A DNA stretch of 64,000 nucleotides, from positions 2,213 to 66,212 of the forward strand of contig CACZYB010000005.1 of the NCBI GenBank assembly GCA_902785275.1. Reading direction: 5' to 3'. Under the pieces are notes generated by a model. That model did not search any database and had not been told where the DNA came from. It saw only the letters and a list, made by a program, of their open reading frames with translations. The position numbers and the translations under genes are program-made. This document shows, one piece after another, positions 2,591-23,282 of the stretch (positions within the stretch are counted from its first letter, which is position 1; every line of letters begins with the position of its first letter). This DNA is from an uncultured Pseudomonadota bacterium (GTDB lineage Bacteria > Pseudomonadota > Alphaproteobacteria > Rs-D84 > CACZYB01).

Positions 2591-2592
2591 AT

Positions 2593-3159: not shown

Positions 3160-3213
3160 ACTCTTCTAAAACCTTTGTTTTCTGTAACTTTATAGAGATT
3201 TTCTCTCTACATA

Positions 3214-3346: not shown

Positions 3347-3466
3347 CTAGATGATATAGTATAACATCTAGACGTTGGTCTAGTTGATATAGTCGATTTT
3401 CATAGCAAAACACTGGCAAATTCTGCTAAATCTTATATCCGTAAAACACAAAAATAGGAGTAAAAA

Positions 3467-4054: not shown

Positions 4055-4204
4055 AATAACCTTGTCCCCACATGGATACAAGATTGCGACATCATAAAAA
4101 AAGCAAACTCCTAAAACAGTTTTTGCAATATTTTTAAATTGTTATGAGAAGTTTTCACAAAATCCGAATTCTACATTTATATAAATGAAAATGTAGGAGA
4201 AAAA

Positions 4205-4363
4205 ATGACAAGTAGTTTTAATCAATTAAAAGAAATAATTAAATCTCAATATCCCGAGAATTCTTTTTCTGATTTTGAATTAGAAGAAGCAACAAAAAGG
4301 ATTATTCAATTTTTTACCATTGGAGCAAAAATGGTAGAATCTTGCGAAAAAAAATTAAAATAA
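4205..4363 (+). CDS. Hypothetical 52-aa protein (island cargo)
   Basis: AGGAGA RBS sits 6 nt upstream of the ATG. It is not in the ORF track (below 60 aa). No recognisable domain. Confidence 0.25.
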   Translation: MTSSFNQLKEIIKSQYPENSFSDFELEEATKRIIQFFTIGAKMVESCEKKLK

Positions 4364-4421
4364 TCGCTTACAAATCATTTTATTCCCGACATAATATTAA
4401 TTAAAAAAAGGGAGTTTAAAA

Positions 4422-5963
4422 ATGTCATATTCTTATTTAAAGAAAAATATAAAAACACAACCTATGCAAGCTGTATTATTTACAAGAGTTTCATCTAGAG
4501 AACAAGAAAGAGGAGACTCTATTGATGCTCAAATGAAGACGGTTAAAGATTATTGTATTCAACACAATATACCTATAATAAAGGAATATAAAATAACTGA
4601 ATCATCATCACATGGTGAAAGAAAAAAGTTTTATGAAATGATTAAATTCATAAAACAACAAAGTGGTAAAATATTAATTGTTGCAAACACTATTGACCGA
4701 ATTCAAAGAAGATTTAAGGAATATATATATTTAGACGAATTACGTCTTGAAAACAAAATTGAAATGTATTTTGTAAGAGAACATTTAACTATAAATTCAA
4801 AATCAAATAGTTATGAAATAGGAACTTGGACACAGGGTGTAATGTGGGCTCAACAATATGTTTTACAATCAAGTGATAATATTAAACGAGCAAATGAAGA
4901 AAGTCGTAATAAAGGAAGATGGTTACACATGGCTCCAATGGGTTATATGAATTATAGAGATGAAACAGGTTTAGCTATGGTTAAAATAGACCCAATAAAA
5001 GGACCACTTGTTAAAAGAGTTTTGGAAGAATATTCTACTGGAAACTATACATTATCAAGGCTTTTAGTATTTGCAAATAATATAGGATTAACTACAAGAC
5101 AAGGTAAAAAACTCAATTTAAAGACATTAGATAATATGATAAGAAATCCTTTTTATTACGGTATTATGAGAACTATTGATGTATTACGACCTCATACATG
5201 TGGAAATTTAATAAGTAAAGACTTATACGATAAAAACCAAGAAATATTGTCTGGTAAATCTAGGCAATTTTTAACTAAACAAGCAGATACATTCTTATTT
5301 AATGGATTATGCTTTTGTGCAACATGTGGTTGTATGATAAGTCAGGAAAGACATACAAAGAAAAATGGTAAGGCTTATACATATTTAAGATGTTGCCATC
5401 ATAAAGGTAATTGTAATCAACCAATAGTTAATGAAGAAGTAATACTTGACCAGATAAAAACAGAAGTTTTTGATAAATTTAAAGTAAATAACAAAATGCT
5501 TGAATTATTAAAGGCAGAAGTTAAGAAAAACATTGAAAAGGAATATTCTGAAACATTACTTATGAAAACACAGATACAAAAGAAGTTAGACGAAGTAGTA
5601 TATCAAAAGAGTAGGTGTGTTGATTTACTTATAAATAATACGATAGATAAGAAAGTTTATGATATGAAAATGAATGAACTAAACGATAGGGAAGTAAGTA
5701 TGAACTACAAACTAGCTTCTTTTGATACAGTAAATAGTGAGATAAATCAAATAGTTAATGGGGTTATAGATTTCGCAAACAATATGGGTAAATACTTTGA
5801 AAGTTCGGATTTTTCTTTAAAAAAGGAAATTTTACAAATTTTAATTCCGAACTCTTTATTGGATTCAAAAAAGTTAGTATTATCAATAACTAAACCATTC
5901 GATGCTATGCTGAAAAGTAAGGATTATGTAAAGTGGTGCGCCATAGGGGAGTCGAACCTCTAA
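4422..5963 (+). CDS. Large serine recombinase (integrase/transposase type)
   Basis: 513 aa. N-terminal resolvase catalytic domain (AVLFTRVSSREQ), a recombinase domain, then a Cys-rich zinc-ribbon region (CFCATCGC...CCHHKGNC) and a coiled-coil tail. Its 3' end overlaps the tRNA-Arg 3' end. Confidence 0.85.
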   Translation: MSYSYLKKNIKTQPMQAVLFTRVSSREQERGDSIDAQMKTVKDYCIQHNIPIIKEYKITESSSHGERKKFYEMIKFIKQQSGKILIVANTIDRIQRRFKEYIYLDELRLENKIEMYFVREHLTINSKSNSYEIGTWTQGVMWAQQYVLQSSDNIKRANEESRNKGRWLHMAPMGYMNYRDETGLAMVKIDPIKGPLVKRVLEEYSTGNYTLSRLLVFANNIGLTTRQGKKLNLKTLDNMIRNPFYYGIMRTIDVLRPHTCGNLISKDLYDKNQEILSGKSRQFLTKQADTFLFNGLCFCATCGCMISQERHTKKNGKAYTYLRCCHHKGNCNQPIVNEEVILDQIKTEVFDKFKVNNKMLELLKAEVKKNIEKEYSETLLMKTQIQKKLDEVVYQKSRCVDLLINNTIDKKVYDMKMNELNDREVSMNYKLASFDTVNSEINQIVNGVIDFANNMGKYFESSDFSLKKEILQILIPNSLLDSKKLVLSITKPFDAMLKSKDYVKWCAIGESNL

Positions 5964-6012
5964 CCTTCTGATCCGTAGTCAGATACTCTATCCAATTGAG
6001 CTAATGGCGCAA
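5936..6012 (-). tRNA. tRNA-Arg (anticodon ACG)
   Basis: The reverse complement reads GCGCCATTAGCTCAATTGGATAGAGTATCTGACTACGGATCAGAAGGTTAGAGGTTCGACTCCCCTATGGCGCACCA. It has a 7-bp acceptor stem, a GTTCGACTCC T-arm and an anticodon loop CTACGGA. Confidence 0.8.
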
Positions 6013-6136
6013 TTAAGAAAACAGTGCTATTATACACCCAAAAATCTAAATTTCAACAAAAATAATATTTTTCTTGTACGGCTTCAATAAATATGCTAAA
6101 ATTCCCACAGTAATCACATATGGAGAGGAGTTGAAA

Positions 6137-7162
6137 GTGTATAGACAAAATAGACGAATTGGAGGAGGTAAATCCCTTGGAAATTTAGGTAAATTCTTGC
6201 TTTCAGTGGCTTTGATGTCTTCTATTATAATAGGTGAGGGTGCCATAGCAGGAAGAAAAAAATCTTCAAATACTTCTCAATCAAGTAAAAGGTCAGGGTC
6301 CAGTCAAAAATCAAACTCTGTATCAAATAAATCCAGCAAAAGATCCGGTTCAAGTCAAAAGGCAACTTCTGTAAGTTCAACAAAAAGAGCAAATGTAACC
6401 CAAAGGGTTTCTGCTAGAATAAAGAAAATCAGTACCCCGGAAAATAACACAGAAAATTCATCGGAAAATACTTCTAAAACTGCATGCACATATGCTTGTC
6501 CTGTTTGTAAATCTAGTGCATCTGGTGCTAAAAATAGTTTTTCCAAAAAAGATGTGGAGAGTCTTCCTCTTTGTACTAATGGTTTTGAATCAGAATCTTA
6601 TGGTGTGAGTTTCGGAAGTGTTTTCAAAAATAAAACTTTTACATTTAATGAAGATAATTCTTATAAGCTTTCCGATTTAATAAATCTTAATAAAATACCA
6701 GATAATGCATCTTTGAATATTAGATATTCTGTTTGTGGAATGAAATTACTTACAGAAACTGAATTAAATGAACAAAAAAAACATCTTGCTCAAGGAGGTA
6801 GCTTTATGGTTGGCAGGTCTGATTTTATTACCTATGCCTTTGAACAAAATGATAGTAATTTTACCTCATATCATGTTTGTAGAGATATAAAAAGAAGTTC
6901 TGATATTACGATAAAAAAATCAGATTTAGATAAATATTATTTCTATGTTGATGGGGGTGATCCAAGAATGAGTGCGACAGCTTGTCCTAAAGGAAATAAT
7001 GGTATTAGAGGATACTTTTTTTACAATGGAGATGATGATAAACTTATTGATGAATTTGATAATTGGGTAGAGAAAAATACAAAGATTGTAAAAGATGAAG
7101 ATGGAGAAGATGTTGAATTAAGCCCAAATATTGATTTTTCATACGTAAAGTTTGTTAAATAA
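6137..7162 (+). CDS. Hypothetical secreted or membrane-anchored Cys- and Ser-rich protein with tandem SSKRSGSSQK repeats
   Basis: GGAGAGGAG RBS lies 6 nt before GTG 6137 (the longest ORF starts at 6074). There is an N-terminal hydrophobic anchor (LGKFLLSVALMSSIIIG), a low-complexity S/K repeat block and multiple Cys pairs (CTYACPVC, CPKG). Confidence 0.5.
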   Translation: MYRQNRRIGGGKSLGNLGKFLLSVALMSSIIIGEGAIAGRKKSSNTSQSSKRSGSSQKSNSVSNKSSKRSGSSQKATSVSSTKRANVTQRVSARIKKISTPENNTENSSENTSKTACTYACPVCKSSASGAKNSFSKKDVESLPLCTNGFESESYGVSFGSVFKNKTFTFNEDNSYKLSDLINLNKIPDNASLNIRYSVCGMKLLTETELNEQKKHLAQGGSFMVGRSDFITYAFEQNDSNFTSYHVCRDIKRSSDITIKKSDLDKYYFYVDGGDPRMSATACPKGNNGIRGYFFYNGDDDKLIDEFDNWVEKNTKIVKDEDGEDVELSPNIDFSYVKFVK

Positions 7163-9633: not shown

Positions 9634-10722
9634 TTAACCCATCGCACTTTGAACCTGATTTTGCATATCAAATACGCCTAAAAGAACCCATGCAATAACA
9701 CCAGAAACAAGCAAAAGAGCAAAGGAATTCAAAATACCGGCTTCCTTTTTTATATTTGCAATACTTGATTCAAGATATTCTGTTGCAACACCGTTCAAAG
9801 CTTCTTCAAAATTATCAAGTTCTGAATAAATTTCCAAATCACCAATAAGTTCATCTTCTGGGAAATGCATATTACTCTTTTTCAATGCAGTTCCAAGGTT
9901 ATCACCGTTTTTAATAAACATTAATGCTTTATCAATTCTTTCTTTCAAGTAAGGGTTTGCATTCTGACGAAGAGATTGCATAGATCTTGCAATAGGTGTT
10001 CCAGATTCGACCAATGCAGCCAAACTCATAAGCCAAGACACGCCACTGAACATTCTGTAAAGAGACCAAGGTGGCATTTTATCAAATGTTACACGTAGTG
10101 GACCTGTGAAGTTTGAAAATGAAAAATAAATTGCACCTATAACTCCCGCCAAAGCAAGAGGAAATGTCCACCAATAAACTCTAACAAATCCTGATAATGC
10201 CACCAAACTTTTTGCACTTCCTGTCCATTGGGCATTTTTTGCAAATTCCAAAAGAGGAGGAACCATATATATACCAACACCAACAACGATAACCATACTA
10301 AGTATCATCATCATAACAGGGTAAGTAACCGCACTAACCAATGGTTGTATAATTCTGTTTGAACCTTCGGAAACCTTAATAACGTTAATCAACGCTTTTT
10401 CCAACTTTGACACATCACCAACAGAAAGCATCAATTTTTCACGCATAGGAGCCCAACCTTCAATAGCTGATGAGAAAGGAAGACCTTTTTCCAATTCTTT
10501 TGACCAAGCAGCAACAGCAATAGCCATAGGTTCATCAACATTCTGGCCATCTTTTGACTCAATCATCCATATACGATCAAGTGCATCCATCAATGTAAAT
10601 CTGTTTCTTAAAAGCGCAGCCAATTTATAATAAATTTGAAGACGTTTTTCATTGTTCATCAACACCATAATTTGTGAAGCTTTTAATAACAATTCATTCT
10701 TTGGAATCCTTTTTTCAGCCAT
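9634..10722 (-). CDS. Type II secretion / type IV pilus inner-membrane platform protein (GspF/PilC family; TcpE/PilR-like)
   Basis: 362 aa, polytopic, GspF-type fold. It is adjacent to the ATPase. Confidence 0.75.
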   Translation of the reverse strand: MAEKRIPKNELLLKASQIMVLMNNEKRLQIYYKLAALLRNRFTLMDALDRIWMIESKDGQNVDEPMAIAVAAWSKELEKGLPFSSAIEGWAPMREKLMLSVGDVSKLEKALINVIKVSEGSNRIIQPLVSAVTYPVMMMILSMVIVVGVGIYMVPPLLEFAKNAQWTGSAKSLVALSGFVRVYWWTFPLALAGVIGAIYFSFSNFTGPLRVTFDKMPPWSLYRMFSGVSWLMSLAALVESGTPIARSMQSLRQNANPYLKERIDKALMFIKNGDNLGTALKKSNMHFPEDELIGDLEIYSELDNFEEALNGVATEYLESSIANIKKEAGILNSFALLLVSGVIAWVLLGVFDMQNQVQSAMG

Positions 10723-10733
10723 AAATCAACCTC

Positions 10734-12347
10734 CTAGTAAACAGCATCGGTATCAAGCATACCGCACCATCTTTCTACTTCATCAACCGCAATTATACCT
10801 CTAAGCATTTTTCCAATAGCATCTTCCTTAAGAGTTCTTCCACTAAGTTCATTAGTCCAATAATGAACTGCCTCACCTTTACTTCCAGAAACAAGTTTTT
10901 CCAAAAACTTTGCATCAGGAATAATAATTTCTGCAGCAACAATACGACCAACAATACCTTTTTTATTACAAAATGGACAACCAGGTCCCTTTATATAGGA
11001 TTGCTCTATACCATATTTACCCAAAGCTCTTTCCAATCTTGCATATGCAGGATGTTCAGGATGATCCTTGATTGGTTGACGACATTTAGGGCAAAGCTTT
11101 TTGAAAAGTCGTTGAGATAACAATCCACGGATAAGTTCAGGATCCTTTAATTTAAATGCATCAATTCCCATATCCAAAAGTCTGTTAACAATAGCAGGTG
11201 CAGAGTTAGCGTGAAGTGTTGACCAAACATTGTGTCCAGAAAGAGCTGCCTTAAAGGTCAACTCTGCAGAAGAAAGGGTTCTGATTTCTCCGACCATAAT
11301 TGCATCAGGGTCAGAACGAAGAGATGCAGCCAAAGCAAGGTTAAACGCATTTTCCTTTTCTTCTTCTGTTGTCGCATTGGTAACAGGCATTTGTCTTGCA
11401 CCTGGAATAGGGTATTCAGGAGGATCTTCCACTGTTATAAGATTAAGTTCATAATTCTTTTCCTTAAGCATCTTAATCATAACACGCTGTAATGTTGTTG
11501 ATTTACCAGAACCGGTAGGACCAGCGATTATACAAAGTCCTGTTGGAAAAGAACGCATTCTTAAAAGCTTATCATCTTCGTAATCCGAAAATCCTAATTC
11601 TTTTAGGTTATCTGCAGAAGATGTTGAAGAATTTGCATACAAAAGTCGCATAACAAGGTATCTTGTACCGAATGCAATAGGGTTAAACTGAAGTCGAATA
11701 GAAAGCACGTTTTCAGGCAAATATAAATCCTTTTCACCACGAAGAGGTGTACTACCTAATTTCTGTCCGGCCTGGAATTCATTCTGTGCATAGTTTGAAT
11801 CTGAAATATCGGCAGATGCGAAAACAGAACGAACGAAAGCTTCTCCCCAATTTTTATCATATTCAAGAATTGTTTGCATACTACCTGCAATTCTGAACAT
11901 AACAGTAGTATGGTCCGCAACAACAACGTGAATATCGGAAACCCTTTGTTCAGAAGCGCGATAAATAATATCAACGAAATCCTTCTGCATTTGGTTGTTC
12001 GACATTGCGTCTTCTTTTGATACAGTTGAAGTATCTGTTTTTATCGCAGTCGAATAAATGGTATTTAACAAACTCATCGCAACATAAGTTGGTCTGTTAA
12101 TAACACCACCTTTCTTTCTAACCAAAGACTGGAAGCTTAAAACTCTACCATCAAATTTATGAGTGTTAGATACAAGAAATGTTCCATCAGAAAACAATGC
12201 AAGCAAACTTTGTGTATCTGTACCAACAGGAAATTTTCCGTTTGGACCAGATTCTAACTTATTATTATTCGCAAAAAGTTTTGCAGCAGCATCCTTAGGA
12301 TTCATACCTTCATAAGGATTTTCTTGCTCTAATACTTCATCACTCAT
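10734..12347 (-). CDS. Type II/IV secretion assembly ATPase (GspE/PilB family; TcpT/PilQ-like)
   Basis: Walker A GPTGSGKSTT, Asp/His boxes and a C-terminal tetracysteine CPKC...CPFC. Confidence 0.85.
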   Translation of the reverse strand: MSDEVLEQENPYEGMNPKDAAAKLFANNNKLESGPNGKFPVGTDTQSLLALFSDGTFLVSNTHKFDGRVLSFQSLVRKKGGVINRPTYVAMSLLNTIYSTAIKTDTSTVSKEDAMSNNQMQKDFVDIIYRASEQRVSDIHVVVADHTTVMFRIAGSMQTILEYDKNWGEAFVRSVFASADISDSNYAQNEFQAGQKLGSTPLRGEKDLYLPENVLSIRLQFNPIAFGTRYLVMRLLYANSSTSSADNLKELGFSDYEDDKLLRMRSFPTGLCIIAGPTGSGKSTTLQRVMIKMLKEKNYELNLITVEDPPEYPIPGARQMPVTNATTEEEKENAFNLALAASLRSDPDAIMVGEIRTLSSAELTFKAALSGHNVWSTLHANSAPAIVNRLLDMGIDAFKLKDPELIRGLLSQRLFKKLCPKCRQPIKDHPEHPAYARLERALGKYGIEQSYIKGPGCPFCNKKGIVGRIVAAEIIIPDAKFLEKLVSGSKGEAVHYWTNELSGRTLKEDAIGKMLRGIIAVDEVERWCGMLDTDAVY

Positions 12348-12357
12348 TTTTCATACC

Positions 12358-13278
12358 TTAGTTAAGATTCATAACTTTTATCTTACTACCATTCTTCAAA
12401 AGAACACTTGTTCCTCTGATATCTTCAACAACCCATTGATCAATAACAGAACCTTTCTTAACTTTGAAAGTAGTTTTCTTTTCTGTGTTTTCAACGTTTG
12501 CAACCAAGTTACCACCAGCACCAATAATAGATTTAACAGTATACTTTTCTTCAAAAGGAGTTTCTTCCTTTTCTTTTTGAGCAATACCAGCACCCAAACC
12601 ATTACTTTGGATAGATTTACCTGTTGATAAGCTCATAAGAGTAGTTAAAGCCTTAACATCTTCTGGATTTGTTAAATCAGCATTATTTATCTTTTCAAGG
12701 AGCTTTTTGTTTATTTCTTCTTCTTGATTCTTTTTCTTCTTTTCTTCAGCATCCTTTTCATCTTGTTGCTTTTGCTTCTTTATTTCTTCAGCCAACTTTC
12801 TTTCTTGTTCTTGTTGTTTAATCTTTCTCTGTCTTGCATCTTCTTCAGCACCAGCAGCAATTTTTTTCTTTTCAGCCTTTTGTTTTTCCAAATCAAGCTT
12901 AAGTTTTCCTTGCTCAATTTTAAGTTTCATAAGAGCATTTTCTCTTTCAATATTTGAAATCTGTTGGAAAGTATTTGCAGTAATATCATCTAACTTATAC
13001 ATTCCATCAGGATCATCCAAACCTTTTTCATTTTCATAAAGTTCATCTGAACCATATCCTTCTTCAAATTCTTCATCTGAAATTTCTGGCTCTTCTGAAG
13101 TTTCTTCACTAGCTTCATCATTTTCTTCTGCGCCTGCATCATCGCTATTATCTTCTTCTTCGATATATTCTTCTTCATCAGATTCGCTTTGAGCAAAAAC
13201 CTTTGTTGAATTATTAAAAGTAAATGCAAAAGAAAGCATAATAAGCAATAATAATAATTTATTTGAATTTTGTTTCAT
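12358..13278 (-). CDS. Periplasmic secretin-interacting protein (PilP/GspC-like C-terminal beta domain). Signal peptide, acidic low-complexity region and a coiled coil
   Basis: The signal peptide, D/E-rich stretch, KQK coiled coil and C-terminal IIGAGGNLVANVEN...GSVIDQWVVEDIRGTSVLL resemble a PilP/GspC HR domain. Confidence 0.4.
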   Translation of the reverse strand: MKQNSNKLLLLLIMLSFAFTFNNSTKVFAQSESDEEEYIEEEDNSDDAGAEENDEASEETSEEPEISDEEFEEGYGSDELYENEKGLDDPDGMYKLDDITANTFQQISNIERENALMKLKIEQGKLKLDLEKQKAEKKKIAAGAEEDARQRKIKQQEQERKLAEEIKKQKQQDEKDAEEKKKKNQEEEINKKLLEKINNADLTNPEDVKALTTLMSLSTGKSIQSNGLGAGIAQKEKEETPFEEKYTVKSIIGAGGNLVANVENTEKKTTFKVKKGSVIDQWVVEDIRGTSVLLKNGSKIKVMNLN

Positions 13279-13319
13279 TTTTCCCTCTCCTTACAAAATT
13301 TTACTTTGTTATACTAACA

Positions 13320-14804
13320 CTATTTTTTTTCATTCGTAGTTCCAACAGGTGCCGGAGCAACATTTGTACCATTTGCACCGCCAGTAGGTGTTTGTGCCGC
13401 AACTGGCGTATTTGTTACTGGAACGTTTATCCCAGTTCCAGCAGTATTTCCTGCATTCTGCTGTTCAGTAGTTGCAGGTTTATTTTTTTCTTCTTCAGCT
13501 TTTTTCTTTGCTTCTTCATCTTTTTTAATTTGTTCAGGTGTAAGTTCATAAACTTTACCAGCATATTCCCAATAATGCTTTTTTTCATTCCAAACGATAG
13601 AGTCTATTTCAACACCGTTCACATCTTTCAAAAGCTTTACCCAGCTTAAAGGAAGTCTGTAAGCAACATCTGTGAATTTAAAACTTGTGTATGGATAATT
13701 TCCTGAATATGAAGGATTTTTTGGATCCTTTACCACAGTAGTCTTATTTTCAAGCTTTAATCCAGAAATCTTCAAAGAATGAAATATACCGTTCAATTTC
13801 TTTTGAATTTCCATCTTTTGTAAATTTGGCTTTGAAGATATATGCTTCATAGAAGGTATAGGTAATATACCAAGTATAGTATTATAAGCACTATCACTTG
13901 CCGAAAGTTTCATATTTTTAGATAGAGCGCCAAATTTTTGTGCTTCAAAAATCCAACCGGCACTACCATAAGTTCTCTTCCAAACAGAAGATAATTGCTT
14001 TTCCTTACATGTCGAATCTTGCAAATTCCAACCAGGAACAGTTGCAGTAGAATTAACAATAAGAACAGTACACTTTTTGGCAAAATCCTCTGGATCAACC
14101 AACATCTCCCATGGAGCAGGAGGTGGAGGAGGTGGAGGTGGAGGAGGCATAGATTTTCTTATCTGTTCCAATCTCTTCTGTTCTAAAAGCTTTCTTCTAA
14201 GTTCAGCCTTTTCCTTTTGTTTTGATTGATATTGCCATGCAACAAAACCAACCAAAGCAAGTATTAAAATGTTTTTTGTAAGATTACTATCAAGCTTTCT
14301 CAAATCTATGGCTTGACCACGAGCAAGCAAGTCTTCTGCAGACATTTCTGTGGTTTCATCAATTCCCCAGCTTGCAGGAGCAATCTTATATCCCCAATCT
14401 GGGATAGAAAGCATAGATTCGAATGCTTCTTTTGCATCATTTTCATCAGTGTAAATAGTATCTTCTTCGGAAAGAATAAGGTTATTTCTGATAGTTATAA
14501 ACCACCAACCTTCTTTAACCTTAAATACACATATTGCAGATGATTTGTCTCTAAGTGCATTAGCTATACCAGAAGCACCTGATGGCATACCAGCCTTTTG
14601 ACCATAGGATGTGTAACCCAAACCGTATTGAGTAGCAGCACCCTTTTTCAAACAGTAAAGATTTGCATTAGTAACAACAGTCTGAATAGTTGCCTTAATT
14701 TCTTTAAGGTAATTTTTTTCATCCTGCACAGGCTGCCAGAACAAACCTACCGCATAGGTTTTACCAGCAACTTCAATGGTTTTTATTTCTTTACTTTTAG
14801 CCAA
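13320..14804 (-). CDS. Bitopic inner-membrane assembly protein (PilO of the R64 thin pilus / GspL-like architecture) with a Pro11 tract
   Basis: A cytoplasmic domain of about 170 aa, a single TM (ILILALVGFVAWQY), a coiled coil, PPPPPPPPPPP, and a periplasmic domain with a T/N/G-rich tail. Confidence 0.35.
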   Translation of the reverse strand: MAKSKEIKTIEVAGKTYAVGLFWQPVQDEKNYLKEIKATIQTVVTNANLYCLKKGAATQYGLGYTSYGQKAGMPSGASGIANALRDKSSAICVFKVKEGWWFITIRNNLILSEEDTIYTDENDAKEAFESMLSIPDWGYKIAPASWGIDETTEMSAEDLLARGQAIDLRKLDSNLTKNILILALVGFVAWQYQSKQKEKAELRRKLLEQKRLEQIRKSMPPPPPPPPPPAPWEMLVDPEDFAKKCTVLIVNSTATVPGWNLQDSTCKEKQLSSVWKRTYGSAGWIFEAQKFGALSKNMKLSASDSAYNTILGILPIPSMKHISSKPNLQKMEIQKKLNGIFHSLKISGLKLENKTTVVKDPKNPSYSGNYPYTSFKFTDVAYRLPLSWVKLLKDVNGVEIDSIVWNEKKHYWEYAGKVYELTPEQIKKDEEAKKKAEEEKNKPATTEQQNAGNTAGTGINVPVTNTPVAAQTPTGGANGTNVAPAPVGTTNEKK

Positions 14805-14827
14805 TTTTACCCCTCAATAAAATTTTT

Positions 14828-16387
14828 TTAGTAGCTTGGCATACCCCACTCGCTATTAGAATTTTCTTCTGTATCAAGTGGTGATGTTATCACTTGAGGT
14901 GTTAACATAACAACCAAGATTTCACGTTGTGTTTCTGTCTTTTGAGAACCACCAACATAAGTAAATGTATTTGAACCCAAACCATTACTTGAATTAGAGT
15001 TAGAAATCTTTTCAAATCCAGTAAGCACAGCTGTTTGACCAGATTCCATAACAATTTCTTGCATAAAGTTTCTTTGGGCAATCTTTGGAAGTTGAACCGC
15101 TGTACTTCCGATAACCTTGTTTTCAACTTCAATAAGTTCCTTCAAAGACATATTGAACATAAGCATCAACTTACCATTTTCAAGAATATTTGGCATAAGT
15201 TGCATACTAAATCCAACAGATTCTTCTTGTGGAGTAACTTCTGTTGTTGAATTTGTGTTTTCAGTCAAAGTAGAAATACTACTGATGTACTTGAATGTCT
15301 GGATGTTGTTAATTGGAACAACACGATTGTTTCTAGCAGTAACAACAGCAGATGTAACAAGTGAAGTTTTACCTTGACTTGACAAAGCTTTAATTGCAGC
15401 AGATGTTGGATTATCTTCTGTTCCAGCCCACTTTGACTTTGCTCCTTCAAGTATAGCAAATGACAAACCATCAGCAGCAGTATTAGATGTCGATGTTTTC
15501 AATACATAGCTTGAGTCGAACAAAGCACTTAAATTCAAACCAAAATTATTATCCTTTGAAACAGAAACTTGAAGAACTTTAACTGTAATAGCAACTTGCT
15601 TTACAAATCTTCTGTTTTGTTCTTTTATATATGATTCTACTTTCTGTAATGTCTTAGGAGAAGCAGTTACAGTAACCGAACTTGTAGAAGGGGACATCTT
15701 AACTTCACCTTCTTTTACTATTGTCTTAAGAACATCAGCCATTTCAGCCCATTCTTTTATAGCAGCAGTAGTAGATAAAGTAGCCGAACCTTCACTTCCA
15801 GATGAAATACTTGAAGTATATGATGCTTCAGTAGCCAATGTATAAACTACAAAAGTTCTTGTCTTGAATTTATAGAACACAATCTTTCCACCTTCGTATG
15901 CCCAACTTAAGTTAGCCTTTAATGCCAACATATTCAAAAGGCCAGAAAGTGAACCTGTATATGAAACACTCATATCTTTTAAGTCATCTTTTTTGATTGA
16001 GTCTTCTATTTGTACAGAAATACCAGTTAAATAGAATATCTGGTTTGTAATTTCATTGAAAGAAACTTCTGATTCGGTCATCAATGTGATACCTTCATCA
16101 GATTCGAATTGTTTTGGAAGAGGATCATTATGTTCTGCAACGAAACTTGAATCACCAAGCCAAATATCATCACTTACAGAAATAATATCCTTATTTATTG
16201 GTTTTCCAGGAACTTTTGCTCTGTCCAAAGCATCTTGAGTAGTATCAAAATCATTAGAAACGGAACTTGACACATCCTGAGCCATTTCTTTGTTATATAA
16301 ACATCCAGTTAAAGCACCGCTCAAAGCAAGAACTGTTAAAAGAACTTTTTTACTAATTTGCATCATTTTCCTCCAATGTTTTAACAA
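14828..16387 (-). CDS. Secretin (GspD/PilQ/TcpC-PilN family) outer-membrane channel
   Basis: 519 aa with a signal peptide. The C-terminal secretin domain ends in ...REILVVMLTPQVI. The S/T-rich N-domains are typical of type IVb secretins. Confidence 0.8.
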   Translation of the reverse strand: MLKHWRKMMQISKKVLLTVLALSGALTGCLYNKEMAQDVSSSVSNDFDTTQDALDRAKVPGKPINKDIISVSDDIWLGDSSFVAEHNDPLPKQFESDEGITLMTESEVSFNEITNQIFYLTGISVQIEDSIKKDDLKDMSVSYTGSLSGLLNMLALKANLSWAYEGGKIVFYKFKTRTFVVYTLATEASYTSSISSGSEGSATLSTTAAIKEWAEMADVLKTIVKEGEVKMSPSTSSVTVTASPKTLQKVESYIKEQNRRFVKQVAITVKVLQVSVSKDNNFGLNLSALFDSSYVLKTSTSNTAADGLSFAILEGAKSKWAGTEDNPTSAAIKALSSQGKTSLVTSAVVTARNNRVVPINNIQTFKYISSISTLTENTNSTTEVTPQEESVGFSMQLMPNILENGKLMLMFNMSLKELIEVENKVIGSTAVQLPKIAQRNFMQEIVMESGQTAVLTGFEKISNSNSSNGLGSNTFTYVGGSQKTETQREILVVMLTPQVITSPLDTEENSNSEWGMPSY

Positions 16388-17078
16388 CTAATACTCTGTT
16401 TCCTAAGAAGAACTTAGCCAAAGGCTGAGGAGTAGCTCTTGAGAAATTTCTTATAATAGCAACAGAAACATCTTTAAATCTTCCTCTGAATATAGCAGAA
16501 GCCTTCAAAGGATACTCTCGTTTTGTATTCCAAACAAGTTCCCAACCTTCAATATCAGCCCATTGTTGCAATACTTCACGAAGTGTCATACCTTCTTTAG
16601 CAACCCAATCACGAACAGCATCTTGAGCAACTTTGTTTTCTTCTGTTTCTTGAACAATTTCTTTTGTTTCAACATATTCAACCAATGTTGGATATCCAGG
16701 AGGCATAGAAGCAGACAAAACTCTTACACCATCATCAACAACCAATTCTTTGTTTGCAAGAGGCATATTTGAATCATCTGGTGGAATGATCCCTTCAACA
16801 ACAGGAGGATTTCCAGCAGGAGGAGTATAGTTTGGACCACCAGTCCAACCAGTTTCAGCTTCTACAGTAGAAGTTTTTACTTCTTCACTTTCTGGGTAAA
16901 CATTAGCCAATGTTTCAATGTTTGAACTTGCATCTGTATAAGGCATAGGCCAAACGCGTTCCTTTTCTTCGGCATAATCTTCCTCAGGTTCAACACCCCA
17001 ATCTGCAAAAGAAGATTCAGGCAAAACGAACATTGCTAGCATTAAAGCAACAAGGGATAATCTTGATATTTTTCTCAT
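16353..17078 (-). CDS. TcpQ/PilL-family periplasmic protein (secretin partner)
   Basis: Signal peptide. The C-terminal GMTLREVLQQWADIEGWELVWN...YPL...FRGRF...AIIRNFSRATPQPLAKFFLGNRVLVV matches the TcpQ_C/PilL consensus as I recall it. Confidence 0.4.
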   Translation of the reverse strand: MRKISRLSLVALMLAMFVLPESSFADWGVEPEEDYAEEKERVWPMPYTDASSNIETLANVYPESEEVKTSTVEAETGWTGGPNYTPPAGNPPVVEGIIPPDDSNMPLANKELVVDDGVRVLSASMPPGYPTLVEYVETKEIVQETEENKVAQDAVRDWVAKEGMTLREVLQQWADIEGWELVWNTKREYPLKASAIFRGRFKDVSVAIIRNFSRATPQPLAKFFLGNRVLVVKTLEENDAN

Positions 17079-19039: not shown

Positions 19040-19903
19040 GTGATGAAAGACTATAGATTAGCTGTTCATATCCATATCTTTTACAAACATATGTGGAAGG
19101 AGATAAAGTCATATCTTAACAATATTACGATTCCTTATGATTTATATGTTACATTGGTTGATGATGATAAAAATTTAATTTCCGATATAAAGATTTTTCA
19201 TAAAGAGGCAAAGGTTTGGATTGTTGAAAATCGTGGTTATGATGTTGGACCATTTATTGATTTTCTTAATAAGATAAACCTTAATGATTACGACTATATC
19301 TTAAAGTTGCATACAAAGGGGCATTCTGGAAAGAATAAATTTACTGATTTATTTAAAGAAAGATATGTTTATTTTGAGCATAAGGATTTATGGAATGATT
19401 TATTGATAAAATCTTTGGTTGGAACAAAAAATATCTTTGAAAAAAATCTAAGCCATTTTTCAAAAGATGAAAAACTTGGTATGATTGGTTCGAAGTATTT
19501 AATTTGTAATTTATCAAAATCATATAAAAAATCTTTACCTCAAATACCCGGATTAAAATATCCAAAGGCATCAGATATTAAGTTTATTGCTGGAACAATG
19601 TTTATGGTAAAAAGCCCACTTCTTCAACCAATAAAGGATAATTTTAAAATCTCAAATTTTGAGCCTACTGATGGTAAAGTAAAGGATAAAGCTTTGGCTC
19701 ATTATATCGAAAGATTGTTTGGTTGTGTTGTTTTATCTCAAGGCTGTAAAATTAAGGGGTTTGATAAATCATGGATTATGCGAATAATTCAACCTCTTAA
19801 TTTCGCAAAAAAATTCATCTTTGACTTCACAAAAACATGTCAAGGATACTATAAAATAAAAATTTTTAGAATACAAATATTGAAGTTTAAGGAGTTGTGG
19901 TAA
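19040..19903 (+). CDS. Rhamnan-synthesis protein F (RgpF)-like rhamnosyltransferase
   Basis: N-terminal AVHIHIFYKHMWKEI...PYDLYVT, typical of RgpF. It sits upstream of rmlACDB. Confidence 0.6.
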   Translation: MMKDYRLAVHIHIFYKHMWKEIKSYLNNITIPYDLYVTLVDDDKNLISDIKIFHKEAKVWIVENRGYDVGPFIDFLNKINLNDYDYILKLHTKGHSGKNKFTDLFKERYVYFEHKDLWNDLLIKSLVGTKNIFEKNLSHFSKDEKLGMIGSKYLICNLSKSYKKSLPQIPGLKYPKASDIKFIAGTMFMVKSPLLQPIKDNFKISNFEPTDGKVKDKALAHYIERLFGCVVLSQGCKIKGFDKSWIMRIIQPLNFAKKFIFDFTKTCQGYYKIKIFRIQILKFKELW

Positions 19904-20898
19904 TGAAATGTTATTTTTGTCTCACAGAACCTGATGATGCAAATTCAATATATCTTGATATGTTGTATGTTTCTCTGAAATCAGCAAGAAAAAATACATC
20001 TTTGGATTTATATGTTCTATACGATGGATCAGAAGATGGTAGGTGTTATTCCATACTAAAAGAATTTAATGTAAAAATAATAAAACATAAATTTTCTCAC
20101 AAAGATTACTTAAAAAAGACTTTCCCTGAGAATTATATTATGAAACTTTGTGGACATAAAGTTTCATATGAAAAAATTGCAGGAACTTTTATGCGTTTTG
20201 ATATACCTTTTGTAGAAAAGGAAGATGATTTTGTTTTTTATTCTGATATTGATGTTATTTTTTTAAAAGATTTTTCTCATGAAAATTTTGATAAACCTAA
20301 ATATTTAGCAGCAAGTTCGGAATGTGATAAAAATTTGAATAATATTTCTTACTTTAATGCTGGTATTATGTATTTAAATGTTAAAAATATGAGAAAAATA
20401 TCAAGCAAAGTTTTTAATATGTTAAAAAATGGGGTTAGAAATAAAAGTGGAGTTTTTGATCAGGGATATCTAAATCAACTTTGTTTTGATAAAATGACAA
20501 TTATGCCAATTGAATATAATTGGAAACCTTATTGGGGAATTGGTAAAAATGTCCATATTGTACATTTACATGCTATGAAACCAGGTGGAACATCTAAAAA
20601 TTCTGGTTTTACCATGAATGACACTATTCTCTATGAAATGTTGAAAGGTCATTTTGAAGATATTGAAGGGTATGTGTATTATTTGATTTTATATTATAAA
20701 TTACTTGGAAAAGATGGAAGTAAATGGTTATCTTCATTTATTTCTTTAATATATACGACTACAGTAAATGTACTATCCGGAAATGTAGAATCAGTTATTT
20801 ATTATAGAAAATATAGAAAATATAGAAAAATATACAAAGTTAGTTTATTGATTATAATTTTTCTACTTTTGTTTATTTGTTATAATTTAGGAGTTTAA
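19897..20898 (+). CDS. Family 8 glycosyltransferase (LPS/glycan alpha-glycosyltransferase) with a C-terminal TM anchor
   Basis: DIDVIF DxD motif and YFNAGIMYLNV. There is a C-terminal YRKYRKIYK repeat followed by a hydrophobic tail. Confidence 0.65.
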   Translation: MVMKCYFCLTEPDDANSIYLDMLYVSLKSARKNTSLDLYVLYDGSEDGRCYSILKEFNVKIIKHKFSHKDYLKKTFPENYIMKLCGHKVSYEKIAGTFMRFDIPFVEKEDDFVFYSDIDVIFLKDFSHENFDKPKYLAASSECDKNLNNISYFNAGIMYLNVKNMRKISSKVFNMLKNGVRNKSGVFDQGYLNQLCFDKMTIMPIEYNWKPYWGIGKNVHIVHLHAMKPGGTSKNSGFTMNDTILYEMLKGHFEDIEGYVYYLILYYKLLGKDGSKWLSSFISLIYTTTVNVLSGNVESVIYYRKYRKYRKIYKVSLLIIIFLLLFICYNLGV

Positions 20899-20899
20899 A

Positions 20900-21739
20900 A
20901 TGCAAAAAAAAATATTAACAGTTATTGTAACATCATATAACTATGAAAAATATATAAAAGAAAATTTGGATGCTTTAACTAATCAAACCTGCAAAGATTT
21001 TGATATTATTGTAATAGATGATGGTTCTTCTGATAATAGTGTTAATATTATAAAAAAATATTTAAAGAGACATAAAAACATAAAATTTTTACAACATGAA
21101 AATGGTGTAAATAAAGGGTTGTGTAAAACAACATTGGTTGCTTTGGAACATGTCGATACAGAATACGTCGCTTTTTGTGAATCTGATGATTATTGGGATA
21201 TCGATCATGTTAAAAATTTATTATCTTTTATAAAAAAACATCCAGAGGCAAATATGATTTTTAATAAATTAGAAGTTAAAAATTATTCAAGTAATCCAGA
21301 ATATGATAGTTATACAAATTCGACAAATATATCTTTAGCAAAATTAAGTGGAACAAATATTTTTAAACTTATGACATCTAATTATATGCCAACGTTTAGT
21401 TCTGCTTGTATAAAAACATCAGAGTTAAAGAAGTGTGATTTTAATTCATTTTATCCTCAGTATCTAGATTTTTGGTTATGGAGGCAATTATGTTTAAAAA
21501 ACAAAATCTTTTTTGTAGATAATTCTATATCATATTGGCGCAAACATAATGAAAGTTATGATATGAAGGATAATATAAAGGATACAAAAAGTTTTTTAAT
21601 TGCATCTAATAATATTATATTAAAAAATTTAAACGTTAGCTTTATAACTAATTTAAAGTTAAACTTGTTTCGTTTTATTCTTTGTAAAAAATTATTTATA
21701 AAAAGACAAATAAAATTTATTATAAAGTATTACAGCTAG
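20900..21739 (+). CDS. Family 2 glycosyltransferase
   Basis: LTVIVTSYNYEKYI...IIVIDDGSSDNS motif. An A9 tract lies at codons 2-5. Confidence 0.7.
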   Translation: MQKKILTVIVTSYNYEKYIKENLDALTNQTCKDFDIIVIDDGSSDNSVNIIKKYLKRHKNIKFLQHENGVNKGLCKTTLVALEHVDTEYVAFCESDDYWDIDHVKNLLSFIKKHPEANMIFNKLEVKNYSSNPEYDSYTNSTNISLAKLSGTNIFKLMTSNYMPTFSSACIKTSELKKCDFNSFYPQYLDFWLWRQLCLKNKIFFVDNSISYWRKHNESYDMKDNIKDTKSFLIASNNIILKNLNVSFITNLKLNLFRFILCKKLFIKRQIKFIIKYYS

Positions 21740-21848
21740 TTCAACATAATCGTTTATTTATGTTGATTTTATTCCTATTGAGTTTTATAATTACTCAACA
21801 GTAATTGGTGGTTTAAATAATTCAACACAAATGAAAGGATTTATACAA

Positions 21849-22736
21849 ATGAAAGGTATTTTGCTTGCAGGGGGAAGTGGTACAAGATTGTATCCTTTAA
21901 CAAAAACTATGTCAAAACAATTACTTCCTGTTTATGATAAACCTATGGTTTACTATCCTCTATCAACATTGATGTTGTTTGGAATAAAAGATATTTTGAT
22001 AATCTCTACACCAAAGGATACTCCTAATATTGAAAATTTGTTTGGTGATGGTTCAAAGCTTGGTTTGAATATACAATATAAGGTTCAAGAAAAGCCAAAT
22101 GGTATTGCCGAAGCTTTTGTTTTAGGTGCTGACTTTGTTGGTGATGATGATGTATGCTTAATCCTTGGTGATAATATTTTTTATATGGGTGACCAATTCC
22201 ATACCTTCCGTGATGAAGTTGAAGAAAATAAAGGTAAGAAAGCAACAGTATTTGCATATCATGTTTCTGATCCTGAACGTTTTGGTGTTGTTGAATTTGA
22301 TAAAGATTTTAATGTTATTTCCATTGAAGAAAAACCTGCAAAACCAAAATCAAATTATGCATCTGTTGGACTTTATTTTTATCCAGGCGATGTTGTAAAA
22401 AAGGCAAAAAGTTTGAAACCATCTGCACGTGGCGAACTTGAAATTACAGACTTAAACAATCTTTACCTTGATGAAAAAAGATTGTCCGTCGTTCCAATGC
22501 GTCGTGGTAATGCTTGGCTTGATGCAGGAACTCCTGATAGTCTTATGGATGCGGGTCAGTTTGTTCAGATTATTGAAAAACGTCAAGCTTTGAAAATCGC
22601 ATGTATTGAGGAGATTGCATATCGTCGTGGTTTTATTAATGATGAACAATTACTTGCTTTAATTGATGAATTAAAGGCTGGTACATATAAAAGTTATTTA
22701 ATGAAAGTATATAGGGAAAAACATGAACTTTATTAA
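21849..22736 (+). CDS. rmlA: Glucose-1-phosphate thymidylyltransferase
   Basis: MKGILLAGGSGTRLYPLT. The second ATG has an AAAGGA RBS (the track ORF starts at 21831). Confidence 0.9.
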   Translation: MKGILLAGGSGTRLYPLTKTMSKQLLPVYDKPMVYYPLSTLMLFGIKDILIISTPKDTPNIENLFGDGSKLGLNIQYKVQEKPNGIAEAFVLGADFVGDDDVCLILGDNIFYMGDQFHTFRDEVEENKGKKATVFAYHVSDPERFGVVEFDKDFNVISIEEKPAKPKSNYASVGLYFYPGDVVKKAKSLKPSARGELEITDLNNLYLDEKRLSVVPMRRGNAWLDAGTPDSLMDAGQFVQIIEKRQALKIACIEEIAYRRGFINDEQLLALIDELKAGTYKSYLMKVYREKHELY

Positions 22737-23280: not shown

Positions 23281-23282
23281 AA

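What the first reader, a model, noticed from the sequence alone, without database searches (positions are those of the whole stretch)
9634..17078. Type IVb pilus / ICE thin-pilus-like machinery (TcpQ/PilL-secretin-PilO-PilP-ATPase-platform) without pilin or prepilin peptidase
Six co-directional genes encode the following, in order. A TcpQ/PilL-like periplasmic protein (C-terminal GWELVWN...FLGNRVLVV). A secretin with an S/T-rich N-region. A bitopic membrane protein with a Pro11 tract. A signal-peptide protein with an acidic region, coiled coil and a PilP/GspC-like beta domain. A GspE-family ATPase with a tetracysteine motif. A GspF-family platform protein. The order matches R64 pilL-N-O-P-Q-R and tcpQ-C-R-D-S-T-E rather than type IVa or classical T2SS clusters. 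No pilin, pseudopilin or prepilin peptidase gene is in the window. For a reduced AT-rich alphaproteobacterium this is an unexpected, possibly undescribed, secretion or adhesion apparatus. It may have been acquired from a conjugative-element pil module.
Basis: partly seen in the sequence, partly recalled or inferred. Interest (0 to 1): 0.7.

Follow-up and report, generated by a model that had tools for sequence, protein, structure and literature searches.

The report
Type IVb pilus assembly core operon
Six adjacent genes in an uncultured, AT-rich gut alphaproteobacterium encode the membrane-spanning assembly core of a type IVb pilus like the bundle-forming pilus of E. coli; it is a real, conserved, selected operon, but an ordinary member of a known kind whose pilin and peptidase genes must lie elsewhere in the genome.

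Summary
Window 9634-17078 (minus strand) holds six tightly packed genes. Each maps to one component of a type IVb pilus (T4bP) machine, in the order bfpG-bfpB-bfpC-bfpU-bfpD-bfpE:
- a TcpQ/BfpG-like secretin partner
- a lipoprotein secretin
- a PilO2/BfpC-like bitopic protein
- a PilP/BfpU-like protein with a GspC-HR/PilP fold
- a BfpD-like ATPase with all catalytic motifs
- a GspF-family platform

The window holds no pilin, prepilin peptidase, retraction ATPase, T2SS or Tad locus.

The operon is chromosomal and vertically inherited. The same six genes occur in the same order in all sufficiently long loci among 80 related species genomes, which are uncultured gut Alphaproteobacteria. dN/dS is 0.04-0.17, similar to the neighbouring accA and accD. 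In a sister clade (CAG:495, Ca. Scatocola) the platform gene is followed by 1-4 PilS/bundlin-type pilins and a BfpF-like ATPase. The window's clade has IHF-accD-accA there instead. Its pilin is therefore most likely unlinked, but I could not find it.

Recent acquisition from a conjugative element is not supported.

Verdict: a new member of a known kind, of modest interest.

The parts
16353..17078 (-). BfpG/TcpQ-like periplasmic secretin partner (241 aa). It has a Sec signal peptide and no lipobox. An acidic, Pro-rich linker is followed by a C-terminal N0-like TcpQ domain (residues about 144-233).
   Evidence: Pfam TcpQ 7.9e-17. PDB 9u5s_R, the partner chain of the BfpB secretin complex, 1.2e-12. 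blastp to BfpG 32% / 1e-15 and to Bosea TcpQ-family protein 43% / 2e-18. dN/dS 0.17 against L002.
14828..16387 (-). Lipoprotein-type secretin, BfpB/PilN-like (519 aa as listed from a TTG start). The true start is probably one of the ATG codons 7-8 codons downstream, at about 16363-16366. Lipobox LTGC at residues 26-29.
   Evidence: Pfam Secretin 7e-12 and Secretin_N. TIGR02520 PilN type IVB 6.7e-72. PDB 9u5s_A BfpB 3.5e-49. Lipobox. dN/dS 0.04.
13320..14804 (-). BfpC/PilO2-like bitopic inner-membrane protein (494 aa). It has a cytoplasmic N-domain and one TM segment at about residues 177-191. Next come a coiled coil, a Pro11 tract, a periplasmic domain and a low-complexity tail.
   Evidence: Pfam PAP_PilO 2.7e-15. 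PDB 3vhj BfpC N-domain 0.0017 over residues 11-163. Bosea PilO2 25% / 2e-32 and BfpC 21% / 4e-7 over nearly the full length. dN/dS 0.13.
12358..13278 (-). BfpU/PilP-like periplasmic protein (306 aa). It has a signal peptide, an acidic region, a long coiled coil and a C-terminal small beta domain of the PilP/GspC-HR type (residues about 240-306).
   Evidence: TIGR03021 pilP_fam matches 23 of 32 orthologues, best 3.3e-8; the window copy scores 0.015. hhalign to the BfpU family, probability 80%, E 1.3e-5. AF2 model with pLDDT 86-91 over the domain; top Foldseek hits are GspC-HR 3oss_C (rmsd 1.9 A over 63 columns) and PilP 2ivw, 3jc8_P, 2lc4 and 2y4y. dN/dS 0.14.
10734..12347 (-). BfpD/PilQ(R64)-like pilus extension ATPase (537 aa), with an intact Walker A, Asp box, Walker B, His box and CxxC...CxxC zinc motif.
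   Evidence: Pfam T2SSE 4.9e-68. PDB 8dze BfpD 8.7e-94 over residues 27-529. Motifs. dN/dS 0.05.
9634..10722 (-). BfpE/PilR-like inner-membrane platform protein (362 aa, GspF family, two T2SSF repeats).
   Evidence: Pfam T2SSF 4.8e-23, two stretches. BfpE 29% / 2e-57 and Bosea platform 34% / 3e-77. dN/dS 0.05.

Best explanation
The six genes form one operon. It encodes the envelope-spanning assembly core of a chromosomal type IVb pilus of the bundle-forming-pilus (BFP) / R64 thin-pilus kind, in an uncultured AT-rich gut alphaproteobacterium.

Proposed working, by analogy with BFP:
- The GspF-family platform and the hexameric, zinc-binding BfpD-like ATPase extract mature pilins from the inner membrane and polymerise them.
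- The bitopic BfpC/PilO2-like protein ties the ATPase and platform, through its cytoplasmic N-domain, to the periplasmic parts.
- The BfpU/PilP-like protein reaches from the inner-membrane complex, through its long coiled coil, and docks its HR-type beta domain on the secretin N0 domain.
- The lipoprotein secretin forms the outer-membrane channel, ringed by the BfpG/TcpQ-like N0-like protein.

The substrate pilins and the A24 prepilin peptidase are encoded elsewhere in the genome. In this clade the pilin module and the BfpF-like retraction ATPase, both adjacent in the sister clade, have been uncoupled from the operon. The likely role is adhesion or aggregation to host mucosa, particles or partner cells in the gut.

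Shown here: gene identities, order, intact motifs, conservation and purifying selection. Inferred: protein contacts, the existence of unlinked pilin and peptidase genes, and the biological role.
For: - Every one of the six proteins is assigned to the corresponding T4bP component by HMM, PDB sequence match, profile-profile comparison or fold.
- The order is identical to bfpG-B-C-U-D-E and to TcpQ-secretin-PilO2-x-ATPase-platform in annotated E. coli, E. albertii and Bosea loci.
- ATPase motifs and the secretin lipobox are intact.
- The same six genes occur in the same order in every sufficiently long locus among 80 species-level relatives, and in two further metagenome/MAG contigs.
- dN/dS is 0.04-0.17 against a relative with dS of about 0.6-1.0, equal to that of accA, accD and IHF.
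- Sister-clade loci carry, right after the platform gene, 1-4 pilins with a class III signal peptide (..EQSG|RSMVEMLGVLAIIGVLS..). These match Pfam PilS at 3.6e-16 and Bundlin at 2.6e-13. They are followed by an ATPase 34% identical to BfpF.
- Pilins of this family also occur as solo genes among housekeeping genes.
- Two solo pilins lie on 31-32% GC contigs whose tetranucleotide profile is closest to window-clade loci (weak evidence).
- The BfpB-BfpG structure and roles are taken from PMC12531336. T4bP models allow a loner peptidase and multi-locus systems (PMC6668835).
Against: - No pilin, minor pilin, prepilin peptidase, lytic transglycosylase or retraction ATPase was found in the 64-kb window, or within about 10 kb of the operon in the 18 window-clade loci.
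- I could not obtain the rest of any window-clade genome, so the existence of a substrate pilin there is inference from purifying selection and from the sister clade.
- The secretin scores below the TIGR02520 equivalog cutoff.
- The PilP-like protein is twice the size of BfpU/PilP, so details of the periplasmic linkage may differ.
- The function (adhesion) is by analogy only.
Confidence: 0.85

Rival explanations
1. The machine works mainly as a secretion device, or assembles only a short periplasmic pseudopilus, exporting a soluble or surface protein rather than building a long adhesive pilus. This would resemble a T2SS, or TCP and Cof, which export TcpF and CofJ.
For: - No retraction ATPase or major pilin is linked in this clade.
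- The ATPase scores about equally to the GspE and PilB equivalog models.
- The gene-4 C-domain superposes best on GspC-HR.
- That T4b systems of the TCP/Cof type secrete proteins is established knowledge, recalled from memory.
Against: - All six proteins match T4b-specific families (TcpQ, PAP_PilO, PilN-type secretin, BfpD) better than T2SS ones.
- No GspC/L/M or pseudopilin genes are present.
- Sister genomes pair the same machine with bundlin/PilS-type major pilins in very many variants, which points to an exposed filament.
- No candidate substrate gene is conserved next to the operon.
Confidence: 0.08
2. The operon is a recently acquired piece of a conjugative plasmid or ICE thin-pilus (pil) module.
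For: - R64-type pil modules have the same core order, and thousands of conjugative plasmids carry homologues.
- Serine recombinases lie about 3.7 kb beyond the operon's downstream end.
Against: - The flanks are housekeeping genes: porin and QueH on one side, IHF, LapA, accD and accA on the other. The same flanks occur in all window-clade species.
- The recombinase island is absent from relatives that still carry the operon.
- The best plasmid ATPase hit is 39% identical, against 60-96% within the lineage.
- There are no relaxase, T4SS or shufflon genes in the window.
- GC is not deviant.
- Purifying selection equals that on core genes.
Confidence: 0.03
3. The operon is an evolutionary remnant. 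After loss of the pilin, retraction ATPase and peptidase during genome reduction, the six genes are inactive or on their way to decay.
For: The pilin, minor-pilin-like gene and BfpF-like ATPase that follow the platform gene in the sister clade are missing here. Relatives have been described as reduced-genome gut bacteria, but whether that description applies to this clade is unproven (PMC12306168).
Against: - All six ORFs are intact in the window, and in nearly all of the 18 clade loci that are long enough, across ATPase identities from 95% down to 66%.
- dN/dS is 0.04-0.17.
- Catalytic motifs are intact.
- About 7.4 kb of useless DNA would not persist in a streamlined genome.
Confidence: 0.04

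Closest known systems
Bundle-forming pilus (BFP) of enteropathogenic E. coli / E. albertii, bfpA-G-B-C-U-D-E-F-P-H-I-J-K-L
   Same: - The six window genes are collinear with bfpG-B-C-U-D-E.
- The best solved-structure matches are BfpD (8.7e-94), BfpB (3.5e-49), the BfpB partner chain (1.2e-12) and the BfpC N-domain (0.0017).
- The secretin is a lipoprotein and the partner protein is not, as in BFP.
- Sister-clade pilins hit Pfam Bundlin, and their second ATPase is 34% identical to BfpF.
   Different: - Identities are only 21-35%.
- The locus is chromosomal and vertically inherited in Alphaproteobacteria, not on a virulence plasmid.
- No pilin precedes bfpG.
- No bfpF, P, H, I, J, K or L equivalents are in the locus.
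- The BfpU-like protein is 306 aa against 164 aa, with an added acidic region and a long coiled coil.
- The BfpC-like protein carries a Pro11 tract and a low-complexity tail.
Uncharacterised T4b cluster on Bosea sp. RAC05 megaplasmid pBSY19_1 (TcpQ-secretin-PilO2-hyp-ATPase-platform-ATPase2-hyp-PilV)
   Same: It is the closest sequence relative found outside the lineage. Matches are ATPase 39%, platform 34%, PilO2 25% (2e-32) and TcpQ domain 43%. The order is the same and the host is also an alphaproteobacterium.
   Different: It has a linked second ATPase and a PilV-type adhesin. It lies on a 709-kb plasmid. It has not been studied experimentally, so it adds no functional information.
R64 / IncI thin pilus (pilI-V) and related ICE pil modules
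   Same: It has the same core families and the order PilL(TcpQ)-..-PilN-PilO-PilP-PilQ-PilR. The pilin directly follows the platform gene, as in the sister clade. Sister-clade pilins hit Pfam PilS.
   Different: - pilM lies between pilL and pilN.
- PilL is a lipoprotein.
- The lytic transglycosylase, peptidase and shufflon adhesin PilV are linked.
- It is part of a conjugation system.
- Sequence matches are weaker than to BFP: ATPase 3e-52 against 7e-102, secretin match covering only 68% of the query, and PilO and PilP not detected by blastp.
Toxin-coregulated pilus (TCP) of Vibrio cholerae
   Same: It has the TcpQ-TcpC secretin pair. It is a T4b machine that works without a retraction ATPase, as the window locus appears to. 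The TCP gene content is recalled from memory; the TcpC-TcpQ homology to BfpB-BfpG is stated in PMC12531336.
   Different: It has three genes (tcpR, D, S) between the secretin and the ATPase, against two here. The pilin and the peptidase (tcpJ) are in the same island. It was not compared by sequence here, because no TCP record was available in the collections searched.

Membership tests
Type IVb pilus system (TXSScan/MacSyFinder T4bP model of Denise et al. 2019, PMC6668835) | Assembly ATPase of the PilB/BfpD type (mandatory) | tested here: met
   T2SSE 4.9e-68. BfpD (8dze) 8.7e-94 over nearly the full length. Motifs intact.
Type IVb pilus system (TXSScan/MacSyFinder T4bP model of Denise et al. 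2019, PMC6668835) | Inner-membrane platform of the PilC/GspF family (mandatory) | tested here: met
   T2SSF 4.8e-23, two repeats. BfpE 2e-57.
Type IVb pilus system (TXSScan/MacSyFinder T4bP model of Denise et al. 2019, PMC6668835) | Secretin (mandatory) | tested here: met
   Secretin 7e-12. Best NCBIfam is the PilN type IVB secretin, 6.7e-72, which is below its equivalog cutoff. BfpB 3.5e-49.
Type IVb pilus system (TXSScan/MacSyFinder T4bP model of Denise et al. 2019, PMC6668835) | Major pilin with a class III signal peptide (mandatory) | tested here: not met
   None was found in the 64-kb window or within about 10 kb of the operon in 18 clade loci. Pilins are present next to the operon in the sister clade. 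The rest of this genome could not be searched, so the feature is unmet for the window and undetermined for the organism.
Type IVb pilus system (TXSScan/MacSyFinder T4bP model of Denise et al. 2019, PMC6668835) | Prepilin peptidase of family A24 (mandatory, allowed as a loner gene) | tested here: not met
   None in the window: no GxGD-type motif in a multi-TM ORF and no tblastn hit to BfpP or an E. coli A24 peptidase. None near the operon in any of 80 loci, including the pilin-bearing sister clade. The model allows a distant loner, and the genome could not be searched.
BFP-type / R64-type T4b core architecture | TcpQ/BfpG-family secretin partner encoded directly upstream of the secretin | tested here: met
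   Pfam TcpQ 7.9e-17. 9u5s_R 1.2e-12. The genes overlap or abut.
BFP-type / R64-type T4b core architecture | PilO2/BfpC-family bitopic protein and a small PilP/BfpU-family protein between the secretin and the ATPase | tested here: met
   PAP_PilO 2.7e-15 and BfpC N-domain 0.0017. pilP_fam in 23 of 32 orthologues, hhalign to BfpU 1.3e-5, and a PilP/GspC-HR fold.
BFP-type / R64-type T4b core architecture | Lipoprotein-type secretin (N-terminal lipobox, no S domain) | tested here: met
   Lipobox LTGC at residues 26-29. The alignment to BfpB reaches the C-terminus, query 138-501 of 519. The LG domain itself was not modelled.
Conjugative thin-pilus module (R64 pil) | Linkage to a conjugation system (tra/trb, relaxase) and a PilV shufflon adhesin; pilM between pilL and pilN | tested here: not met
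   The window genes are housekeeping or polysaccharide genes. There is no relaxase, T4SS or PilV, and no gene between the TcpQ-like gene and the secretin.
Type II secretion system / Tad (T4c) pilus | GspC/L/M plus pseudopilins (T2SS), or TadZ/RcpC/two TadB-C platforms plus Flp pilin (Tad) | tested here: not met
   No such families were hit. The accessory proteins are TcpQ, PAP_PilO and PilP types. The public PGAP name 'TadA' for the ATPase homologues is not borne out by the BfpD match.

The most novel reading that the evidence does not exclude
In this AT-rich, possibly genome-reduced gut alphaproteobacterial clade, the T4b machine has been stripped to six core genes and uncoupled from its pilin and retraction modules. 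It may be the organism's main device for attaching to, or exchanging material with, a host or partner cell. That would be analogous to the pili of episymbiotic Patescibacteria. Alternatively it may have been repurposed to polymerise a pilin family unrelated to PilS/bundlin, or to secrete a substrate.
Probability: 0.12. Interest if true: 0.55.

Novelty: new member of a known kind. Interest (0 to 1): 0.33.

Why it matters
It gives an almost unstudied group of animal- and human-gut Alphaproteobacteria a concrete, testable surface organelle. It also corrects a misleading public annotation, because the ATPase is named 'TadA/Flp' in these MAGs.

The comparison across relatives shows two states of one chromosomal T4b system. 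In one, the core operon is linked to pilins and a retraction ATPase, and the pilin family is extraordinarily diversified (more than 8000 clusters at 90% identity). In the other, the core stands alone. Together they form a natural experiment on how pilus loci are broken up and on pilin variation in commensals.

It does not change what is known about how type IVb pili work.

Tried and rejected
1. Hunt for the clade's pilin.
- I ran regex and hydrophobicity scans of the window and of 80 loci, and tblastn with sister-clade pilins, the pilin-like 208-aa protein, the BfpF-like ATPase, BfpP, BfpH, BfpI-L and Bosea PilV. Nothing was found in the window clade.
- I then tried to link a pilin to a window-clade contig by matching the 'longest_contig' lengths of the ATPase hits (648222, 714895 and others) with those of pilin hits. 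There were no matches.
- That test is uninformative. Each list shows only 120 of more than 8000 clusters, and even sister-clade pilins and ATPases, which are adjacent, share no contig lengths in the two lists.
- A 50%-representative search, composition ranking and best-hit ranking did not separate a window-clade pilin subfamily.
- Contexts of four pilins with AT-rich amino-acid composition or long contigs turned out, by tetranucleotide profile, to be sister-clade-like.
- A metagenome DNA-pattern scan biased to AT-rich codons gave two solo pilins whose profile is closest to window-clade loci, but only at r of about 0.7. This is suggestive, not proof.

2. Taxonomy. I considered that the clade is GTDB order Rs-D84 (Ca. 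Enterousia; PMC12306168). I could not test it. No locus title says so, and the window has accA/accD, whereas that paper reports lipid synthesis to be absent. I therefore do not claim it.

3. The 6074-7162 S-rich protein as a degenerate pilin: rejected. It has an ordinary signal or anchor sequence, no E5, no homology to pilins, and is not conserved in relatives.

4. Promoter and terminator scans gave no more sites than chance.

5. The first peptidase motif (G.GD.K) was too strict, because BfpP has AGGDIA. I repeated the scan with [AG].GD in multi-TM ORFs and with tblastn.

Full report
**What is there**

The interval 9634-17078 carries six minus-strand ORFs of 241, 519, 494, 306, 537 and 362 aa. 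They are separated by 10-41 nt or overlap slightly, so they form an operon-like block.

HMM searches assign five of them directly:
- Gene 1: Pfam TcpQ (7.9e-17).
- Gene 2: Secretin, with NCBIfam TIGR02520 'PilN family type IVB pilus formation outer membrane protein' as the best family (6.7e-72, although below its equivalog cutoff).
- Gene 3: PAP_PilO (2.7e-15).
- Gene 5: T2SSE (4.9e-68).
- Gene 6: T2SSF (4.8e-23).

Gene 4 alone gave only a weak pilP_fam hit (0.015). I therefore collected its positional orthologues from related loci and aligned 32 of them (A3).
- 23 of the 32 match TIGR03021 PilP, best 3.3e-8.
- The family profile aligns to a small BfpU-family alignment (A5) with hhalign probability 80% and E 1.3e-5. 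The alignment covers the coiled coil and the C-terminal domain.
- An AlphaFold2 model of the last 92 residues has pLDDT 86-91 across the beta domain.
- Its best PDB matches are the GspC HR domain bound to GspD (3oss_C, rmsd 1.9 A) and PilP from Neisseria, Myxococcus and Pseudomonas. Foldseek E-values are weak (0.016-0.3), but the top eight hits all belong to this one fold family.

**Closest characterised relatives**

Against solved structures the best matches are all from the EPEC bundle-forming pilus:

| Window protein | Best PDB match | E-value |
|---|---|---|
| ATPase | BfpD (8dze), residues 27-529 | 8.7e-94 |
| Secretin | BfpB (9u5s_A) | 3.5e-49 |
| TcpQ-like | Partner chain of the BfpB complex (9u5s_R) | 1.2e-12 |
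| PilO-like N-domain | BfpC (3vhj) | 0.0017 |

I fetched annotated loci for the bfp operon (E. albertii), two BFP-like E. coli plasmid clusters and a Bosea megaplasmid cluster. All show TcpQ-secretin-PilO2-small protein-ATPase-platform-second ATPase. The window is collinear with bfpG-B-C-U-D-E.

An IncI (R64-type) locus has pilM before pilN and gives weaker matches. The ATPase scores 3e-52, the secretin match covers only 68% of the query, and PilO and PilP are not seen by blastp.

By pairwise blastp the ranking is Bosea cluster, then BFP, then IncI. ATPase identities are 39%, 35% and 33%.

The paper on the BfpB-BfpG structure (PMC12531336) gives the mechanistic frame:
- BfpB is a lipoprotein secretin without an S domain.
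- It is encircled 17:17 by the N0-like BfpG, a homologue of TcpQ.

The window secretin has a lipobox (LTGC, residues 26-29). The TcpQ-like protein has a plain signal peptide, as BfpG does. The ATPase has an intact Walker A, Asp box, Walker B, His box and two CxxC pairs.

**Where it comes from and how widespread it is**

The ATPase has thousands of relatives in metagenomes. The closest are 94-96% identical, and many are labelled Alphaproteobacteria or 'Rickettsiales bacterium' MAGs from ruminant, human (Hadza) and termite guts.

A scan of one genome per GTDB species found 283 loci, of which 80 were fetched. In every locus long enough, the six genes are present in the same order. Two arrangements exist.

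- Window clade (L001-L018). ATPase identity is 66-95%. GC is about 30-38% in vertebrate-gut members and 54-59% in termite-gut members. The operon lies between a porin (with QueH beyond it) and IHF-LapA-accD-accA, exactly as in the window.
- Sister clade (L019-L080). It includes Proteobacteria bacterium CAG:495 and Ca. Scatocola, with ATPase identity of about 60-63%. The platform gene is followed by three things:
  - a roughly 208-aa pilin-like gene
  - 1-4 tandem pilins with the leader ..EQSG|RSMVEMLGVLAIIGVLS.. and two conserved cysteines (Pfam PilS 3.6e-16, Bundlin 2.6e-13)
  - a roughly 320-aa ATPase that is 34% identical to BfpF

Neither clade has an A24 peptidase or a lytic transglycosylase near the operon.

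**Is the pilin-less operon functional?**

Against L002, where dS is 0.6-1.0, the dN/dS values are:

| Gene | dN/dS |
|---|---|
| TcpQ-like | 0.17 |
| Secretin | 0.04 |
| PilO-like | 0.13 |
| PilP-like | 0.14 |
| ATPase | 0.05 |
| Platform | 0.05 |
| accA (neighbour) | 0.03 |
| accD (neighbour) | 0.06 |
| IHF (neighbour) | 0.06 |

More distant pairs give the same picture. The operon is therefore maintained by selection, which implies a substrate.

**Pilin and peptidase**

The window has neither. Its other genes are:
- housekeeping genes, including the ribosomal protein operon, SecY, EF-G, IF-2, NusA, CTP synthase, ClpP, RuvB and PFK
- a surface-polysaccharide locus
- a small recombinase island

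There is thus no T2SS or Tad locus that could explain the genes.

I could not reach the rest of any window-clade genome. The pilin family is very large: more than 8000 clusters at 90% identity, and 618 clusters at 50% identity with E below 1e-30.

Members also occur as solo genes among housekeeping genes. Those contigs resemble the sister clade by tetranucleotide profile.

A pattern scan biased to AT-rich codons found two further solo pilins on 31-32% GC contigs. Their profiles are closest to window-clade loci, at r 0.70-0.74. That is only a hint.

The T4bP detection model of Denise et al. treats the system as multi-locus and the peptidase as a loner (PMC6668835). Unlinked pilin and peptidase genes are therefore within the known range.

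**Origin**

Recent acquisition from a conjugative element is not supported:
- The chromosomal flanks are constant across species.
- The GC content is ordinary.
- Identity to any plasmid homologue is below 40%.
- No conjugation genes are in the window.

The serine recombinases at 2593-5963 are strain-specific. They sit beyond tRNA-Arg, a non-conserved S/K-rich orphan gene (6074-7162), accA, accD, LapA and IHF, and are unrelated to the operon.

An ancient transfer into the common ancestor of both clades cannot be excluded. It would need phylogenies that I could not build here.

**Novelty**

Literature searches for this lineage together with pili returned nothing. A 2025 paper on reduced-genome gut lineages mentions type IV pili only for another group (PMC12306168). 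I could not show that the window belongs to the order discussed there.

PGAP names the ATPase homologues 'Flp pilus assembly complex ATPase component TadA', which is misleading.

The system is a new member of a well-known kind. Its distinctive points are:
- the clean separation of the six-gene core from the pilin and retraction genes in one clade
- the enlarged PilP/BfpU-like protein
- the very diverse pilin repertoire of the sister clade

**Verdict**

This is a type IVb pilus assembly core of BFP-like order, chromosomal, vertically inherited and under selection. Its pilin and peptidase are presumably unlinked, but I did not find them. Interest is modest.

Noticed in passing
window 607-6010: This looks like a strain-specific island. 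There are three serine-recombinase/resolvase-type ORFs: 2593-3159 (-), 3467-4054 (+) and 4422-5963 (+). The last is a large serine recombinase whose 3' end overlaps tRNA-Arg(acg) at 5934-6010. They lie beside very low-GC (26-28%) polysaccharide genes: UDP-galactopyranose mutase at 607-1710 and DUF4422 at 1712-2590. The large recombinase (the only island gene searched for) has no counterpart in related loci. It may be an integrated element or a variable glycan cassette.
   Followed up: partly
window 6074-7162 (+): A 362-aa Ser/Lys-rich protein with an N-terminal signal or anchor sequence and a Cys-containing C-terminal domain. It has no Pfam family and no homologue in the related loci, and it lies between tRNA-Arg and accA.
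   Followed up: partly
window 19040-25096 (+): A surface-polysaccharide locus lies just beyond the porin and QueH genes. It holds an RgpF-like gene, GT8, GT2 and rmlA-C-D-B (dTDP-rhamnose synthesis). GC dips to 24-28% in the glycosyltransferase part.
   Followed up: partly
window 27430-28809 (-): A 459-aa secreted orphan protein with a signal peptide, a coiled-coil middle and Gly/Thr/Ala/Ser-rich stretches. It has no Pfam hit and may be a surface protein.
   Followed up: no
L019-L080 about 13300-15700; L084-L090, L092, L093: Sister-clade PilS/bundlin-type pilins are extremely diversified: more than 8000 clusters at 90% identity, 1-4 tandem copies after the platform gene, and solo copies scattered among housekeeping genes. 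The N-terminal 45 residues are nearly invariant and the C-terminal domains are variable. Some gene calls include a conserved N-terminal extension of about 40 aa (..ECSADTKLFFDDVYKSGTRGKK..), duplicated in P0342. This suggests a conserved 5' region usable for recombination or antigenic variation.
   Followed up: partly
public annotations of P0003, P0005, P0010, P0024 and others: The BfpD-like ATPase of this lineage is named 'Flp pilus assembly complex ATPase component TadA' in NCBI MAG annotations. The context and the BfpD match show it belongs to a type IVb system, not a Tad system.
   Followed up: yes
window 14110-14145 (-), inside the PilO/BfpC-like gene: The Pro11 tract is encoded by an imperfect CCT/CCA repeat. 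A similar poly-Pro tract is present at least in the high-GC termite-gut relative L012. It is probably a rigid periplasmic spacer, and in-frame length variation is possible.
   Followed up: no
L012, L014-L016 against L001-L011: The window clade spans a very wide GC range, 30-38% in vertebrate-gut MAGs and 54-59% in termite-gut MAGs. Over that range it keeps the same operon and, where enough sequence is available (L012, L015), the same downstream IHF-accD-accA flank.
   Followed up: no
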